Shown here: in pieces, positions 20,224-48,776 of the stretch
Layout: every line of letters starts with the position of its first letter
How positions within the stretch are numbered: the stretch's first letter is position 1
Virus record (IMG/VR): IMGVR_UViG_3300037418_001222
Reading direction: 5' to 3' (one strand)
Source of the DNA: a virus
Lineage: Duplodnaviria > Heunggongvirae > Uroviricota > Caudoviricetes
DNA length: 49,910 nt
Notes under the pieces: model-generated
Seen by the model: the letters and a program-made list of their open reading frames with translations, nothing else
Told to the model about the DNA's origin: nothing
Database searches by the model: none
Position numbers and translations under genes: made by a program

Positions 20224-20436
20224 TTAGATATAGACTGGTTGAACTAGGTTTACTGGAACAATCTCAAGACCGCGTTGGTTCGAAAAGTGTTCATTGATGG
20301 AATTAGCCGCATCACACTTACGATCATAAACTCGAGCTTCTTGAAGTGAGTCTACGAAAGTCATTGGAGAATAGAAAGGACGCTTGCCACCCTTAACGAA
20401 CTTACCATCAGTAGTACGAATAACAAACTTGGACAT
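20224..20436 (-). CDS. hypothetical protein
   Basis: 70-aa ORF. Confidence 0.6.
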   Translation of the reverse strand: MSKFVIRTTDGKFVKGGKRPFYSPMTFVDSLQEARVYDRKCDAANSINEHFSNQRGLEIVPVNLVQPVYI

Positions 20437-20465
20437 AATATATCACTTTAGCATGAATAAATGTG

Positions 20466-20542
20466 TGGCGCGCCTGGTGGGACTCGAACCCACAACGCAT
20501 GCTTTTAGAGAGCACCGCTCTAACCAATTGAGCTACGGGCGC
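20466..20542 (-). tRNA. amber suppressor tRNA (anticodon CUA)
   Basis: GCGCCCG acceptor; anticodon stem GTGCT/AGCAT with loop CT-CTA-AA; GTGGG-TTCGAGT-CCCAC T arm; GCCA end. Confidence 0.85.
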
Positions 20543-20614
20543 GTAAAATGTAAAGGGAAAGTGGTGGACCTAATTGGTCGGAATATACTTCATTTGTATT
20601 ACACCAATAGTTAA

Positions 20615-20692
20615 TGGTCCGGGTGGAGAGATTCGAACTCCCGACATCCTGCTCCCAAAGCAGGCGCGCTAACCAGGCTGCGCTACACCCGG
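20615..20692 (-). tRNA. tRNA-Pro(UGG)
   Basis: canonical cloverleaf, CCTGC-TTTGGGA-GCAGG, ACCA. Confidence 0.93.
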
Positions 20693-20693
20693 A

Positions 20694-21143
20694 CTATTGT
20701 TTTCTTCCAAATATGACAGCTCTATTATCAGAGTACGCTACAATTGGGGCGAAATCAGTGAATGCTTCGAGCTTCTGAACTATATCAGTTCTACAGTCTA
20801 GAACAAAGTTCTGTACGACTAGAACTGCATGTTCTTCTCTAGTGATTAGATCCTTTCCCATGAGCACCCAGATGGTGCTAGAATCGAATCCAGCCGCTAT
20901 AAGAATAGCTCTTCCAAGGATTGCATAATCCTCACAATCACCGGTTTTGAGAGATAGTGTTTCTTCTGGCGATTGCCAGTAGTCTACATCATCTCTCTTG
21001 TATGTGATGTTTCTTCTCATCCATACAATTACTTGTTTAGGAGTTTCAAGACCTTCAATGGGAGATATTCTCTGTGATTCTACTCTAATCCATTTGGGAG
21101 ATAGAGGAGCACCATCAACTGATATCCAACCTTGAAATTCCAA
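20694..21143 (-). CDS. transglutaminase-like cysteine peptidase (BTLCP/C93-like)
   Basis: DYWQSPEETL...GDCEDYAI...HAVLVV...VLD. Confidence 0.82.
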   Translation of the reverse strand: MEFQGWISVDGAPLSPKWIRVESQRISPIEGLETPKQVIVWMRRNITYKRDDVDYWQSPEETLSLKTGDCEDYAILGRAILIAAGFDSSTIWVLMGKDLITREEHAVLVVQNFVLDCRTDIVQKLEAFTDFAPIVAYSDNRAVIFGRKQ

Positions 21144-21163
21144 AGCAAGTCCTCAATTATTTA

Positions 21164-21251
21164 ACGGGCTCTCTTTTTGCTCCAATAGCAAAAGCCTAAA
21201 GCGACTTTTATAGGAATCGAACCTATTATAAGAGTTTGCTGAACAGAGCCC
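21164..21251 (-). ncRNA. Y-RNA-like family member 1 (permuted mini tRNA elbow)
   Basis: GGGCTCT-GTTCAGCAA ... AGAGCCC-GT; cargo ATAGG-TTCGATT-CCTAT T arm, AAAAG/CTTTT stem, GCT-ATTGG-AGC. Confidence 0.75.
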
Positions 21252-21260
21252 AAATTTTAT

Positions 21261-21361
21261 CAGGTTCCCTTTTTTGCAACGGGAATTGAACCCGCAACGT
21301 CTGAGTAAAAGTCAGATGTGTATCCATTACACTTTGCTAAAAGGTTTGATGTAAGGAACCT
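21261..21361 (-). ncRNA. Y-RNA-like family member 2 (CCA-less tRNA-Lys(UUU) body)
   Basis: AGGTTCC-TTACATCAA ... GGAACCT-G; cargo has a D arm, TCTGA-CTTTTAC-TCAGA and GCGGG-TTCAATT-CCCGT. Confidence 0.75.
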
Positions 21362-21400
21362 ATTTTCATACCTTCCGGGAGCTACCCATCTAGTACACTT

Positions 21401-21432
21401 CTATATATACCAAAATTCTAGATTAATGTCAA
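21401..21432 (-). promoter_or_regulatory. sigma70-type promoter
   Basis: TTGACA-17-TATATA(TAG) upstream of ncRNA 2, ncRNA 1 and the two tRNAs. Confidence 0.7.
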
Positions 21433-21441
21433 CTAAAATAG

Positions 21442-21585
21442 TTACAGAGCAAGAGAAAGAATAACCAAGACTACTGTAATCACAATAATAAATGCAGCGA
21501 TAGTCTGATTAGAAGATCTATGAAGATATGCTAGTTCCTCTTTAGATAGTGGAACCGGAGTCTCATCCTCAATGACATTATTCAT
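21442..21585 (-). CDS. small membrane protein
   Basis: MNNVIEDE... with hydrophobic C-terminus. Confidence 0.5.
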   Translation of the reverse strand: MNNVIEDETPVPLSKEELAYLHRSSNQTIAAFIIVITVVLVILSLAL

Positions 21586-21764
21586 CACACAATTTCTAAT
21601 AGCGCCGCAGCACAAGCCAAAAGAACTAACCAAACAGTTAAATCAGTTGGAGCTAGTGAATTGTTCGAAATAAAGAGCCTCTTCACCTTGGTCAGGAAAG
21701 ATAGCTGAGTAAAATCCTCTGGTGTGTTAAGAGGAGATACAATGGAAACTAGAGTCTCAAACAT
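21585..21764 (-). CDS. small membrane protein (59 aa)
   Basis: read manually: MFETLVSIVSPL...VWLVLLACAAALLEIV, GAGG RBS. Confidence 0.5.
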   Translation of the reverse strand: MFETLVSIVSPLNTPEDFTQLSFLTKVKRLFISNNSLAPTDLTVWLVLLACAAALLEIV

Positions 21765-21783
21765 GAAAATCGCCTCACTAATA

Positions 21784-21912
21784 ACAGGTTCGTCTTGTTG
21801 CTACGTGCGCTACCATTACACCAAAGTCCCGCAAAATATGGTGGGACCCCTAGGATTCGAACCTAGACCACGACTATCCAAAAGTATGCAAAAGGGTTGC
21901 TGAATCGAACCT
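21784..21912 (-). ncRNA. Y-RNA-like family member 3 (YrlA-like circularly permuted tRNA domain)
   Basis: AGGTTCG-ATTCAGCAA ... CGAACCT-GT; cargo T arm CTAGG-TTCGAAT-CCTAG, GGGTCCC-ACCA-linker-GGGACTT, D arm GTGT-AATGGTA-GCGC. Confidence 0.82.
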
Positions 21913-21927
21913 AAAACTCAGAATTAA

Positions 21928-21996
21928 TTAAAGGAGATCACGAAGCTTATAACCACCAAACCCGAAAATGGCGGCAGTGAGCAAGAAAGTAATCAT
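21928..21996 (-). CDS. 22-aa hydrophobic peptide
   Basis: AAGGA RBS, MITFLLTAAIFGFGGYKLRDLL. Confidence 0.4.
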   Translation of the reverse strand: MITFLLTAAIFGFGGYKLRDLL

Positions 21997-22030
21997 AGTA
22001 TAGTTTCCTTCACATTTACCTCCATCATAT

Positions 22031-22071
22031 AAAAGTCGGTGGGAGAGCGGAGGTGAGGACCCTCCCACCGA
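22031..22071 (-). terminator. terminator-like hairpin after the DUF2828 gene
   Basis: TCGGTGGGAG ... CTCCCACCGA followed by CTTTT. Confidence 0.6.
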
Positions 22072-22090
22072 GCCGTAATCCTGGGGAGGA

Positions 22091-23509
22091 TTAACGGAAG
22101 TCATACCTCTCGGTCATTACTGTCTTACGCATGATTCCCTCAGGAGTCATGTTGTTCAGGTCCGCAGACAGAACAGACTTCATGATCGATGGGCTGAAAC
22201 CAGAGACTAGAGCAGTTCCAGTTTCATCGAAGGTTACAGGAACATTGCCATGAGCGTTGATGTTCCAGAAGACGATGGCTGGTACTTCATATCCAGCATT
22301 CTCATAATCATTTCTGATCATTTCGACTGCTCGAGCATCAGGACGGCAACAATTGAACTGCATATCCGACATGATTAGAAGTGCGGTTGGCATCTCTTCC
22401 TGAGGAACATCCTTGTCACATGCGACCTGAAGAATCTTCTTAAGAGCCTTCTGGAGGTCGGTACTCATACTCCAGTTAGACTTAGCCATAGTGTTATAAC
22501 GCTGAGACAGAGTTCCCTTAACGGTCACGAACTCAGGAGAGCTGGAGAACGTTAGGAAAACATCTTTAAAGTCACCAGTGTTCTTGCTTGCGCAATATAG
22601 ACCAAGTGACACCGCAACGTCAAGGCATGATACGGTTACACCCTTCGCTCCATAGCCTCCGGCTGGGCAGGTCATAGAACCAGAGACGTCTACTAGAGGT
22701 AGAACACGAGCATCACCAATGTAGTTTGGTAGAGCTTCCCACTGAGCATCGGCCACAGACGAATCACCATACCTAACGGTCTTGATGACGTCATATGGAT
22801 ACACTGCTCCGGCGTTTACCTTCGCAACCTTTGGATCACCCTTCTTCAGAGCGGCCTTCCATGCCTCGAAGTGAGCTGGAGCGTGCTTCTTGAATGCCTT
22901 CGTGTAACGAGACATAGCAAGAGATGGTACGTGATTGAAGTTAATAGCCTCGAACTCACGGTTACACATAAGAGTTTCGACGACCTGAGTTAGAGACACA
23001 AGAGTCTTACGGTACTGCTTAGGTGAGAAGTGCATGAACTCACGGAGTTCGCGAGCTAGAGCACCCTTACGAGGCATCCACTTAGCGCAGAGACCATTTC
23101 CGTCACGCAGAGCATCACGGATTAGACTATATGCGACTTCCTTCACTTCACGAGTAGAGAATACGAGCAAGTCATCCCAACGACCAAGCTCTGGAACCTT
23201 ACGAAGAAGATTCGTCTCAGTCAAGAGGTTTGGCTTAACCTTCTCAAGGTGACGAAGAACGTCACGGAAAAGCTTACGCTCACCGGTGCCCTGGCGCACA
23301 TCTCGACCATGGAGAGCGATACGGACAGCTAGATCGGAATCCTCGATGAGAGCTAGATCGAATAGCTGAGTAATGTCCTTACCACGAGAAGCACCAAGCT
23401 TACCGAATAGATCGACGTTGGCGCGACAGGTAGACTCAAAAGCCTTCATGCCATTGGTGGTACGAGTCTTCTTTGGAGTGTTACGAACTGCATTTGCGAA
23501 AGTAGTCAT
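22091..23509 (-). CDS. DUF2828-family Ro60/TROVE-like protein with C-terminal vWA domain
   Basis: TTNG, RDVRQGTGER, GRWDDL, AKWMPR, VPSLAM; vWA MIDAS DVSGSM, SDMQF, IVFWN, SGFS. Confidence 0.88.
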   Translation of the reverse strand: MTTFANAVRNTPKKTRTTNGMKAFESTCRANVDLFGKLGASRGKDITQLFDLALIEDSDLAVRIALHGRDVRQGTGERKLFRDVLRHLEKVKPNLLTETNLLRKVPELGRWDDLLVFSTREVKEVAYSLIRDALRDGNGLCAKWMPRKGALARELREFMHFSPKQYRKTLVSLTQVVETLMCNREFEAINFNHVPSLAMSRYTKAFKKHAPAHFEAWKAALKKGDPKVAKVNAGAVYPYDVIKTVRYGDSSVADAQWEALPNYIGDARVLPLVDVSGSMTCPAGGYGAKGVTVSCLDVAVSLGLYCASKNTGDFKDVFLTFSSSPEFVTVKGTLSQRYNTMAKSNWSMSTDLQKALKKILQVACDKDVPQEEMPTALLIMSDMQFNCCRPDARAVEMIRNDYENAGYEVPAIVFWNINAHGNVPVTFDETGTALVSGFSPSIMKSVLSADLNNMTPEGIMRKTVMTERYDFR

Positions 23510-23527: not shown

Positions 23528-23595
23528 ACAGGTTAGTGTTTGTCCGCTAAGACAATCGGAAGTTTTAGCGAGTTTTGTTTTGCTGAAACTAACCC
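23528..23595 (-). ncRNA. Y-RNA-like family member 4
   Basis: GGGTTAG-TTTCAGCAA ... CTAACCT-GT, immediately upstream of the DUF2828 RBS; internal CGCTAA/TTAGCG stem. Confidence 0.75.
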
Positions 23596-23616
23596 ATGAT
23601 TCGTGTAACAGGAGTT

Positions 23617-23871: not shown

Positions 23872-23947
23872 TGGAGCGGATAGCGAGAATCGAACTCGTC
23901 TCCATGCACGGTTTGGAAGACCGGCTGCATACCCTATGCTTACCCGC
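23872..23947 (-). tRNA. tRNA-Gly(UCC)
   Basis: GCGGGTA/TATCCGC acceptor, loop CT-TCC-AA, U73-CCA. Confidence 0.88.
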
Positions 23948-23959
23948 TCATTAGGATTA

Positions 23960-48628: not shown

Positions 48629-48680
48629 ACAGGAACGTCTTGGTTGTTATAGCAAAACAAAGAGTTGCTGAATCGTTCCT
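48629..48680 (-). ncRNA. Y-RNA-like family member 7 (minimal; Ser-GCU anticodon stem-loop)
   Basis: AGGAACG-ATTCAGCAA ... CGTTCCT-GT; cargo TTGTT-TTGCTAT-AACAA. Confidence 0.75.
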
Positions 48681-48776
48681 CAAACCAAAATTCTGTGTAC
48701 CGAATAACGGATCGGTACCACCCCGAGAAACGGCCGTTTACGGCACCCGTTCCGCCACTTCTCTTTCGAGAAGATC

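What the first reader, a model, noticed from the sequence alone, without database searches (positions are those of the whole stretch)
21784..21912. Circularly permuted tRNA elbow with internal ACCA (YrlA-like) on a non-canonical handle
Seen: the order is T arm, 3' acceptor strand GGGTCCC-ACCA, an 8-nt linker, 5' acceptor strand GGGACTT, D arm, with the anticodon arm replaced by the family stem. It looks like the 3' half of one tRNA gene, a spacer and the 5' half of the next. Member 1 (21164..21251) is a reduced version of the same topology. Established: this permutation is the hallmark of bacterial YrlA Y RNAs. It independently supports the Ro60-like assignment and suggests origin by capture from a tandem tRNA array.
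Basis: partly seen in the sequence, partly recalled or inferred. Interest (0 to 1): 0.75.

Follow-up and report, generated by a model that had tools for sequence, protein, structure and literature searches.

The report
Permuted tRNA mimic with encoded CCA
This phage gene encodes a small RNA shaped like a tRNA written in rotated order and clamped by a stem that probably docks on the phage's Ro60-like protein. It follows a known plan, the bacterial YrlA Y RNAs, in a widespread phage variant that keeps a built-in ACCA end and so may be cut open like a real tRNA precursor.

Summary
On the minus strand (21913..21784) a 7-bp stem plus AUUCAGCAA encloses a T arm, GGGUCCC-ACCA, an 8-nt linker, GGGACUU and a D arm. 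A covariance model built without this window scores it 73 bits (E 5e-15); real tandem tRNAs here score 18 bits or less.

It belongs to a large phage RNA family encoded beside DUF2828/DUF7788 genes, whose predicted fold matches Ro60. Covariation supports every helix (95% of cells paired, against about 44% when partners are slid).

The plan is YrlA-like, but Rfam YrlA gives no hit and the Ro-binding motif differs. The anticodon arm is not simply replaced: relatives carry a 5-bp/7-nt anticodon-like hairpin there, which is degenerate here.

- R-CCA sits exactly at positions 73-76 in 16 of 98 members, against 1.5 expected.
- It is kept in orthologs whose acceptor stems have turned over.
- It comes with U-1 and G+1.

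I infer RNase P opening and trimming to a CCA end, as shown for Mycobacterium smegmatis YrlA. This is untested here.

I found no parent tRNA and no support for recent capture.

This scan has already met the family, and one rotated CCA-bearing mimic, on other DNA.

Verdict: new variant of a known kind.

The parts
21784..21913 (-). Whole RNA element, about 130 nt: 5' UAGG... to ...CCUGU 3'
   Evidence: R2 (built without the window) 73.1 bits, E 4.9e-15. R1 82.3 bits. The element fills the gap between minus-strand ORFs 21928-22104 and 21585-21764.
21906..21912 (-). Handle, 5' strand AGGUUCG
   Evidence: Pairs 7/7 with 21786-21792. The handle helix is 98.1% paired across 69 family members, and all 7 pairs show changes on both sides.
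21897..21905 (-). Family motif A-UUCAGCAA. Inferred docking site for the Ro60-like protein.
   Evidence: Exact TTCAGCAA at 21897-21904. The motif is invariant in alignment A1. The docking role is inference by analogy with the 5'-strand motif of Y RNAs (PMC4201824).
21871..21887 (-). Degenerate anticodon-like ('V') hairpin AUACU-UUUGGAU-AGUCG, with a 3-bp core
   Evidence: It aligns to the 5-bp/7-nt CU-NNN-AA hairpin of relatives. It is not significant on its own: ARAGORN still calls a tRNA in 66% of trials when this segment is replaced by random window DNA.
21850..21866 (-). T arm CUAGG-UUCGAAU-CCUAG
   Evidence: Read directly. The T helix is 99.7% paired in the family.
21843..21849 (-). Acceptor 3' strand GGGUCCC (tRNA positions 66-72)
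   Evidence: Pairs 7/7 with 21824-21830. The acceptor helix is 95.9% paired and all 7 pairs covary. Orthologs keep the pairing with other sequences.
21839..21842 (-). Encoded A73-C-C-A
   Evidence: R-CCA lies at exactly this offset in 16 of 98 members, against 1, 1 and 0 at neighbouring offsets (binomial p 3.6e-12). All 15 true tRNA genes in the window encode CCA.
21831..21838 (-). Linker UAUUUUGC. Predicted to be removed: RNase P is expected to cut between 21831 and 21830.
   Evidence: The linker differs in length and sequence in orthologs while ACCA is kept. The cleavage is inferred from M. smegmatis YrlA (PMC4201824).
21824..21830 (-). Acceptor 5' strand GGGACUU (tRNA positions 1-7)
21807..21821 (-). 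D arm GUGU-AAUGGUA-GCGC, preceded by U8 G9
   Evidence: The D helix is 97.4% paired. UGGUGUAAUGGUAGCAC is shared with the closest subfamily.
21786..21792 (-). Handle, 3' strand CGAACCU, followed by GU
   Evidence: The ...CCUGU end is conserved in the family.
22091..23509 (-). Presumed protein partner: 472-aa DUF2828+DUF7788 protein with a Ro60 (TROVE+vWA) fold
   Evidence: Pfam E-values 9e-24 and 3e-44. Foldseek top 12 hits are all Ro60/TROVE: 9kop, 9l5y, 2nvo, 1yvp; E 2e-9 to 1.5e-4; TM 0.43-0.58. The model has mean pLDDT 70.7.
21164..21252 (-). Member 1: a reduced, closed version of the same plan
   Evidence: R2 40.0 bits, E 3e-7. Its ortholog L119:5040-5130 carries GCCA after the acceptor strand.

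Best explanation
The element is a Y-RNA-like partner RNA of the phage's Ro60-like (DUF2828/DUF7788) protein. It belongs to a widespread phage family defined by a 7-bp terminal stem, the motif xUUCAGCAA and a ...CCUGU end.

Its cargo is a circularly permuted tRNA body: a remnant anticodon-like hairpin, a T arm, a 7-bp acceptor helix and a D arm. The covariation and the conserved elbow nucleotides point to a tRNA-like L-shape; no three-dimensional model was made.

It belongs to a minority 'open' class that encodes R73-CCA followed by a short AU-rich linker. Most likely RNase P cuts 5' of G+1 (between 21831 and 21830) and exonucleases trim the linker back to ACCA. That would give a two-piece, CCA-ended tRNA mimic held together by the acceptor helix and the handle, as happens to Mycobacterium smegmatis YrlA.

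The mimic then presents a tRNA elbow and acceptor end to some tRNA-binding host or phage factor, as tether or decoy, while docked on the ring protein.

Shown here: the structure, family membership, gene linkage, and the enrichment and conservation of CCA.
Inferred: transcription, protein binding, cleavage and function.
For: Family and structure
- A model built without the window scores the element 73.1 bits, against 18.2 or less for tandem tRNAs.
- In 69 distinct members 95.3% of cells are paired, against 38-46% with slid partners. 25 of 28 pairs change on both sides.
- RNAalifold on 5 orthologs predicts the same helices on its own.

Synteny
- Orthologs lie just downstream of the Ro-like gene in L119 (85% protein identity), L120 and L066.

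Linkage to the protein gene
- 160 model hits fall in 80 loci fetched by the protein.
- 16 of 51 loci found by the RNA alone hold the gene within the fetched DNA, against 3 of 49 controls.
- The protein has a Ro60 fold.

The CCA
- R-CCA sits exactly at positions 73-76 in 16 of 98 members (p 3.6e-12), across at least 8 D-arm types.
- It is kept in WIN, L119, L135 and L066, whose acceptor stems and linkers have diverged.
- The CCA class is enriched for U-1 (11/16 against 27/82) and for G+1 (11/16 against 31/82, Fisher p 0.03), and always has a purine at 73.
- All 15 true tRNAs in the window encode CCA.

Precedent
- M. smegmatis YrlA has a 7-bp acceptor stem. It is cut by RNase P in vitro and in vivo and ends in CCA (PMC4201824; 10.1101/312249).

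Elbow
- D-loop GG goes with T-loop UUC in 70 members and D-loop AG with T-loop UGC in 4 of 4.
Against: - There are no expression, binding or cleavage data.
- N-1 in this element is C, not the preferred U.
- The close ortholog L120 and most of the family (82 of 98) have closed loops without CCA, so an open end is not needed for the family's core function.
- The MFE is no better than shuffles.
- Rfam YrlA does not match.
- In the one experiment on this protein family, Bas63 gp130 alone, without its RNAs, countered the Ppl defence in T7 (PMC11482910). The RNAs may therefore be dispensable for that activity.
- The covariation alignment was fitted to the model, which favours the structure.
- The four 18:55 covariants are probably one evolutionary event.
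Confidence: 0.6

Rival explanations
1. Same family and same tRNA mimicry, but the acceptor helix stays closed. The 12-nt ACCAUAUUUUGC stretch is simply a hairpin loop, and R-CCA is either a loop-borne recognition element (for example for an enzyme that reads CCA) or a slowly decaying relic of a tRNA ancestor.
For: - 82 of 98 members, including ortholog L120 and Member 1 of this window, have closed loops of 3-9 nt without CCA.
- S. Typhimurium YrlA is a closed mimic and is not cut (PMC4201824; 10.1101/312249).
- N-1 is C here.
Against: - CCA lies at exactly 74-76 with a purine at 73, together with U-1 and G+1 enrichment. That is the signature of pre-tRNA ends rather than of a loop motif.
- CCA is retained while stems and linkers turned over.
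- All members have the 7-bp stem that made M. smegmatis YrlA an RNase P substrate.
Confidence: 0.3
2. After opening, the CCA end is functional. The two-piece RNA would be aminoacylated, or would serve as bait for enzymes that act on tRNA 3' ends. It would then be a chargeable tRNA body carried by a Ro60-like ring, comparable to the tRNA-like domain of two-piece tmRNA.
For: - The element encodes A73-CCA after a 7-bp acceptor helix starting G1-C72.
- Orthologs L119 and L135 have G3:U70 with A73, the main alanine identity set. The identity rule is from my knowledge of AlaRS.
- The cyano_tmRNA (permuted) model weakly aligns the T arm plus acceptor hairpin.
Against: - The window element has G3-C70.
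- G3:U70 occurs in only 2 of 16 CCA-class members.
- No tmRNA is called and no tag frame is evident.
- The tmRNA score is 9.7-12 bits against a gathering score of 70.
Confidence: 0.05
3. It is a true circularly permuted tRNA gene. Its ends would be joined and its acceptor opened to give a decoding tRNA-Pro(UGG), as for the permuted tRNAs of Cyanidioschyzon.
For: - ARAGORN calls the computationally re-permuted sequence tRNA-Pro(UGG), 74 nt.
- Relatives carry canonical CU-NNN-AA loops.
Against: - The ARAGORN call survives in 66% of trials with a random anticodon segment.
- The anticodon stem here has 3 bp and a UU...AU loop.
- In relatives one body carries GAA, GUA, GCA, ACG, UAG and AUG with a 4-nt variable region. 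That does not fit the isotype rules: bacterial Tyr and Leu tRNAs need long variable arms (from my knowledge).
- The same handle carries non-tRNA cargos.
- A normal tRNA-Pro(UGG) is already present at 20615-20692.
Confidence: 0.03
4. It is a decaying pair of neighbouring tRNA pseudogenes with no function.
For: - The order T arm - CCA - spacer - 5' strand - D arm is what two adjacent tRNA genes give.
- The Rfam YrlA model itself picks up the real tRNA-Pro/suppressor pair at 20493-20670 (25.7 bits).
Against: - The two acceptor strands are complementary to each other and covary.
- No 5' half of a first tRNA or 3' half of a second tRNA flanks the element.
- It is conserved at the same position in related phages.
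- It carries the family handle.
Confidence: 0.02

Closest known systems
YrlA (Y RNA-like A; Rfam RF02553), especially the Mycobacterium smegmatis form (Chen et al. 2014, PMC4201824; Wang et al. 2018, 10.1101/312249)
   Same: - A terminal stem that carries the presumed Ro60-binding site.
- Then a 'V' hairpin, T arm, acceptor stem-loop and D arm, which make a circularly permuted tRNA.
- Encoded on the same strand next to a Ro60-fold protein gene.
- The M. smegmatis form has a 7-bp acceptor stem, is cut by RNase P and ends in CCA.
   Different: - No Rfam YrlA hit.
- UUCAGCAA takes the place of GNCGAAN0-1G.
- The partner is a DUF2828/DUF7788 protein with no detectable sequence match to solved Ro60, only a fold match.
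- The full ACCA is genome-encoded. In M. smegmatis the terminal CA is added after cleavage.
- Relatives carry a canonical anticodon-like loop whose triplet varies.
Phage Ro60 with Y-like RNAs: Thermus phage phiLo Ro60 with Yrl1/Yrl2 (PMC12135203; PDB 9KOP, 9L5Y), and Bas63 gp130, a Ro60-like protein that counters the Ppl defence (PMC11482910)
   Same: - A phage-encoded Ro60-fold protein with small RNAs encoded beside it.
- 9KOP and 9L5Y are the best structural matches of the window protein.
- The Bas63 authors guessed that some 'tRNA genes' next to gp130 are Y RNAs.
   Different: - Yrl1 and Yrl2 are described as stem-bulge-stem RNAs with a CGAA motif, not as permuted tRNAs.
- No RNA was characterised for Bas63.
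- Neither paper describes a CAGCAA handle or an encoded CCA.
Circularly permuted tRNA genes of Cyanidioschyzon merolae (Soma et al. 2007, as cited in 10.1101/312249) and two-piece (permuted) tmRNA
   Same: - The 3' half (T arm, 3' acceptor strand) lies upstream of the 5' half.
- The acceptor is opened by RNase P-type processing.
- The pieces are held together by pairing.
   Different: - No splicing-type junction and no sound anticodon arm here.
- No G3:U70 and no tag frame.
- tmRNA models score 12 bits or less.
Class I RNAs of dictyostelid amoebae (Rfam RF01414; Kjellin et al. 2021, PMC7919456)
   Same: This concerns the handle only: a short covarying terminal stem, a conserved ...ACAGCAA motif next to its 5' strand, a variable middle, and ends AAG.../...CUGU. 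Here the ends are UAGG.../...CCUGU.
   Different: - The window gives no RF01414 hit at the gathering score or at E<=10.
- A mycobacteriophage member gives 20.9 bits against a gathering score of 41.5.
- Class I RNAs are 42-65 nt with no tRNA-like cargo, and no Ro-like partner is reported for them.

Membership tests
YrlA (Rfam RF02553) | Score at or above the Rfam gathering threshold (69 bits) | tested here: not met
   No YrlA match at E<=10 on 20300-22200 or on 21770-21930. None at gathering in 16 related loci. A mycobacteriophage relative scores 21.4 bits over part of the model and L171 scores 37.5 bits.
YrlA (Rfam RF02553) | Permuted tRNA plan: T arm, acceptor-like stem-loop and D arm enclosed by a stem formed from the 5' and 3' ends | tested here: met
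   Read directly, drawn by the MFE fold, supported by covariation and by RNAalifold on orthologs.
YrlA (Rfam RF02553) | GNCGAAN0-1G motif near the 5' end (presumed Rsr contact) | tested here: not met
   That position holds AUUCAGCAA. The only CGAA is in the T loop.
YrlA (Rfam RF02553) | Encoded within 4 kb of a Ro60 ortholog and on the same strand | tested here: met
   178 nt downstream of 22091-23509 on the same strand. The protein has a Ro60 fold, but belongs to Pfam DUF2828/DUF7788 rather than TROVE.
YrlA (Rfam RF02553) | Bound by Ro60/Rsr; T- and D-loop modification by TruB and DusA | not testable with these tools
   Needs co-immunoprecipitation and modification mapping.
CAGCAA-handle phage Y-like RNAs (not in Rfam 15; met repeatedly in this scan) | 6-7-bp covarying terminal stem, xUUCAGCAA one base after its 5' strand, ...CCUGU end | tested here: met
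   Model R2, built without the window, scores 73.1 bits.
CAGCAA-handle phage Y-like RNAs (not in Rfam 15; met repeatedly in this scan) | Linkage to a DUF2828/DUF7788 gene | tested here: met
   160 hits in 80 protein-fetched loci. 16 of 51 RNA-fetched loci hold the gene, against 3 of 49 controls. Also found in Mycobacterium phage Wigglewiggle, Escherichia phage HY02 and Bacillus phage PBC2.
Circularly permuted tRNA gene (decoding tRNA after maturation) | A sound anticodon arm after re-permutation | tested here: inconclusive
   ARAGORN calls tRNA-Pro(UGG), but also calls a tRNA in 330 of 500 trials with a random anticodon segment. Only 3 of 5 stem pairs form.
Circularly permuted tRNA gene (decoding tRNA after maturation) | Bulge-helix-bulge junction and a circular intermediate | not tested
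   No formal motif search was run. By eye the terminal stem is a plain 7-bp helix.
Two-piece (permuted) tmRNA | Detected by tmRNA models; G3:U70; tag reading frame | tested here: not met
   ARAGORN finds no tmRNA. cyano_tmRNA scores 9.7-12 bits against a gathering score of 70. The 3:70 pair is G-C.
Dictyostelid Class I RNA (RF01414) | Rfam gathering score of 41.5 bits; 11-nt motif CCUUACAGCAA (as in the RF01414 consensus printed) | tested here: not met
   No hit in the window. The motif shares only CAGCAA. A relative scores 20.9 bits.

The most novel reading that the evidence does not exclude
The R-CCA class may be opened in vivo into two-piece tRNA mimics with free CCA ends, riding on a Ro60-like ring, and the free end may be functional. 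It could be charged: L119 and L135 carry G3:U70 with A73. Or it could act as a tethered decoy or sensor for host enzymes that attack or modify tRNA acceptor ends during infection. That would make this a new kind of phage counter-defence particle, not a passive Y RNA.
Probability: 0.1. Interest if true: 0.85.

Novelty: new variant of a known kind. Interest (0 to 1): 0.55.

Why it matters
What the tRNA-like domain of bacterial Y RNAs is for has been open since 2014. This phage family offers many natural variants of one design: closed or CCA-encoding acceptor ends, and swappable anticodon-like loops. They sit next to a Ro60-fold protein, one member of which has an experimental phenotype (anti-Ppl, PMC11482910).

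The CCA class makes a sharp, cheap prediction: an RNase P cut at a defined bond and a trimmed ACCA end. If that holds, opening of the mimic is a selected feature in phages rather than a peculiarity of M. smegmatis. The next question would be what reads the exposed end.

For annotation, these elements are missed or labelled 'tRNA-Pseudo/OTHER' in phage records.

Tried and rejected
- MFE z-score: 0.07, uninformative.
- ARAGORN on the re-permuted sequence calls tRNA-Pro(UGG). I dropped this as evidence for an anticodon arm because random or shuffled anticodon segments are still called in 66% and 88% of trials.
- Parent tRNA in the window: best 52 of 74 identical, which is background.
- Parent half-tRNAs beside 14 CCA-class relatives: at most 19 of 24-25. 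No sign of recent capture.
- A real tRNA with the same anticodon in the same locus: 7 observed against 4.3 expected. Not significant, and the loci are partial.
- Sequence search of the protein against PDB: nothing. Only the fold search found Ro60.
- Whole genome of the window: not held.
- Cultured phages with a CCA-class element: none found. Eleven loci near DUF2828 genes were scanned. Four full-length permuted elements turned up, in HY02, Wigglewiggle and PBC2, and all are closed. Citrobacter phage Ci1 has a weak 24.5-bit hit with GCCA after a poorly paired stem.
- Supplementary tables of Chen et al. 2014 are not held. I could not check whether CAGCAA-handle RNAs are among their 22 phage YrlAs.
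- Alternative pairing of CACCA with UGGUG (D-arm start): possible here and in L119, but impossible in CCA-class members with other D arms, so I dropped it.
- The hairpin GCAA/UUGC (21899-21888) that RNAalifold draws shows no covariation.

Full report
**What is there**

The element lies on the minus strand, 21913..21784. In order, 5' to 3':
- U, then AGGUUCG (handle)
- A-UUCAGCAA
- a 9-nt spacer
- AUACU-UUUGGAU-AGUCG
- UGGU
- CUAGG-UUCGAAU-CCUAG (T arm)
- GGGUCCC, ACCA, UAUUUUGC, GGGACUU
- UG, then GUGU-AAUGGUA-GCGC (D arm)
- ACGUAGCAACAAGA
- CGAACCU (handle), then GU

The two acceptor strands pair 7/7.

The element fills the gap between minus-strand ORFs 21928-22104 and 21585-21764. It starts 178 nt downstream of the 472-aa gene at 22091-23509. 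ARAGORN and Rfam call no tRNA here.

**Is it more than chance?**

Folding energy says nothing (z = 0.07). The comparative evidence is strong.

- An exact-pattern scan of IMG/VR for TTCAGCAA followed by a T loop returned 118 stretches. Parsing showed a recurring plan: 7-bp handle, motif, hairpin, T arm, 7-bp acceptor hairpin, D arm, A-rich strand, handle, UGU.
- A covariance model built from 21 such sequences without the window scores the element 73.1 bits (E 4.9e-15). It scores Member 1 (21164-21252) 40.0 bits. It scores the real tandem tRNAs of the window 18.2 bits or less.
- On 69 distinct members, 95.3% of cells pair, against 38-46% when partners are slid. All 7 acceptor pairs and all 7 handle pairs change on both sides. 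That alignment was fitted to the model, which favours the structure.
- RNAalifold on five orthologs recovers the same helices on its own.

**Orthologs**

Loci fetched with the neighbouring protein carry the element at the same place.

| Locus | 3' acceptor strand | Connector | 5' acceptor strand |
|---|---|---|---|
| WIN | GGGUCCC | ACCA-UAUUUUGC | GGGACUU |
| L119 (85% protein identity) | GGGCUCC | ACCA-AUCUAU | GGGGCCU |
| L066 | CACCCCG | GCCA-UCUAU | CGGGGUG |
| L135 | CGGUUCC | ACCA-ACUUUAU | GGGACUG |
| L120 (72% protein identity) | CGACCGC | UCUAUUCAU (closed loop) | GCGGUCG |

Sources.

The stems have turned over with compensatory changes, which excludes a pair of decaying pseudogenes. 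R-CCA is kept in four of the five.

**The CCA class**

- Among 98 distinct members with the full plan, R-CCA sits exactly at tRNA positions 73-76 in 16. At neighbouring offsets the counts are 1, 1 and 0. About 1.5 is expected (binomial p 3.6e-12).
- The 16 span at least eight D-arm types.
- Compared with the closed class they have only purines at 73, U at -1 in 11 of 16 (against 27 of 82), G at +1 in 11 of 16 (against 31 of 82, p 0.03), and longer, more AU-rich connectors. These are the marks of bacterial pre-tRNA ends.
- All 15 true tRNA genes in the window encode CCA.
- I found no parent tRNA for the element or for 13 other CCA-class members. The CCA is therefore not a fresh relic of capture.

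**The anticodon position**

In the closest subfamily a 5-bp/7-nt hairpin, UCUUU-CU-NNN-AA-AAAGA, sits between the motif and the T arm. Its triplet varies (GAA, GUA, GCA, ACG, UAG, AUG) on an otherwise constant body.

Orthologs L066 and L135 have similar loops. In the window and in L119 the hairpin is degenerate (3 bp; loops UUUGGAU and UUUAGGA).

ARAGORN calls the re-permuted window sequence tRNA-Pro(UGG). It does the same in 66% of trials with a random segment in that place, so I give this no weight.

One body carrying many anticodons, with a 4-nt variable region, argues for mimicry and against decoding.

**The partner**

- The 472-aa protein matches Pfam DUF2828 and DUF7788 and no PDB sequence.
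- Its predicted structure (mean pLDDT 70.7) has only Ro60/TROVE proteins as its 12 best PDB matches. These include Thermus phage phiLo Ro60, D. radiodurans Rsr and Xenopus Ro60.
- Homologs occur in 710 phage records.
- Linkage to the RNA family is strong in both directions.
- The linkage also holds in cultured phages: Wigglewiggle 71.6 bits, HY02 72.6 bits, PBC2 80.6 bits. The elements in those three phages are closed.

**Comparison with what is known**

- YrlA RNAs are published as circularly permuted tRNAs with closed acceptor loops next to Ro60.
- M. smegmatis YrlA, with a 7-bp stem, is cut by RNase P and ends in CCA.
- An origin from dimeric tRNA transcripts has been proposed (PMC4201824; 10.1101/312249).
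- The handle resembles dictyostelid Class I RNAs instead (PMC7919456).
- Bas63 gp130, a Ro60-like protein of a Felix O1-type phage, counters the Ppl defence even without its RNAs (PMC11482910).

Earlier notes of this scan describe the same handle family in other genomes, and one rotated whole-tRNA mimic with internal CCA. The kind has therefore been met before in this scan.

**Mechanism**

- Shown: the structure, family membership, gene linkage, and CCA enrichment and retention.
- Inferred:
  - transcription with the Ro-like operon;
  - docking of the handle on the ring protein;
  - an RNase P cut at 21831|21830 and trimming to ACCA (about 55-60% likely);
  - presentation of a tRNA elbow and end to an unknown tRNA-binding factor.

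**Verdict**

This is a new variant of a known kind.

Noticed in passing
L119:4581-4708 and L135:2571-2696: These two CCA-class orthologs have G3:U70 with A73 and encoded CCA. That is the classical alanine identity set (from my knowledge). The window element has G3-C70.
   Followed up: partly
L119, L120, L135, L066 compared with the window (D loop 21817-21811, T loop 21861-21855): D-loop GG goes with T-loop UUC in 70 members, and D-loop AG with T-loop UGC in 4 of 4. This looks like covariation of the elbow pair 18:55, though it is probably a single event in one clade.
   Followed up: partly
L008, L024, L027, L033, L035, L085, L101, L107, L118 and others: The closest subfamily keeps one tRNA-like body and one hairpin stem (UCUUU/AAAGA), but the anticodon-like triplet differs: GAA, GUA, GCA, ACG, UAG, AUG. 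Variation concentrated on three bases suggests selection on the displayed triplet.
   Followed up: partly
L199:3535-3581 (Mycobacterium phage Wigglewiggle) and the handles at window 21897-21912, 23580-23600, 48665-48681: The handle (short stem...ACAGCAA/UUCAGCAA, end CUGU) resembles dictyostelid Class I RNAs, which are reported as unique to Dictyostelia (RF01414 20.9 bits; PMC7919456). Other agents of this scan noted the same.
   Followed up: partly
window 22030-22078, minus strand: A GC-rich hairpin (GGUGGGAG...CUCCCACC) followed by CUUUUAUAU lies directly after the stop of the Ro-like gene, inside a 58-aa ORF (21928-22104). It could be a leaky terminator or a processing signal between the gene and the RNA. 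The consensus scan does not list it.
   Followed up: no
window 23872-23949, minus strand: A tRNA-Gly(UCC)-like sequence sits just after a TTGACA-17-TATATA promoter-like site. Neither ARAGORN nor Rfam calls it. It has a short D loop and an enlarged variable region.
   Followed up: no
L200:5012-5125 (Citrobacter phage Ci1, record 77205-77318): A 114-nt feature annotated 'tRNA-Pseudo-AAC / tRNA-OTHER' lies downstream of the DUF2828 gene and overlaps weak family hits. Such elements may be mislabelled as pseudo-tRNAs in phage records.
   Followed up: partly
L040:2485-2850: A viral contig with family members also encodes a permuted, two-piece tmRNA (alpha_tmRNA 119 bits, tmRNA_permuted 106 bits).
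   Followed up: no
L202 (Serratia phage BF), L206 (Listeria phage LP-125): RNA-repair and tRNA-end genes lie within a few kb of the DUF2828 gene: an RNA ligase and a tRNA nucleotidyltransferase in BF, and an RtcB-like ligase in LP-125.
   Followed up: no
window 20493-20670, minus strand: The Rfam YrlA model aligns, at 25.7 bits, to the T arm of the real tRNA-Pro plus the D arm of the next tRNA. This is the tandem-tRNA false positive that Chen et al. warned about.
   Followed up: yes
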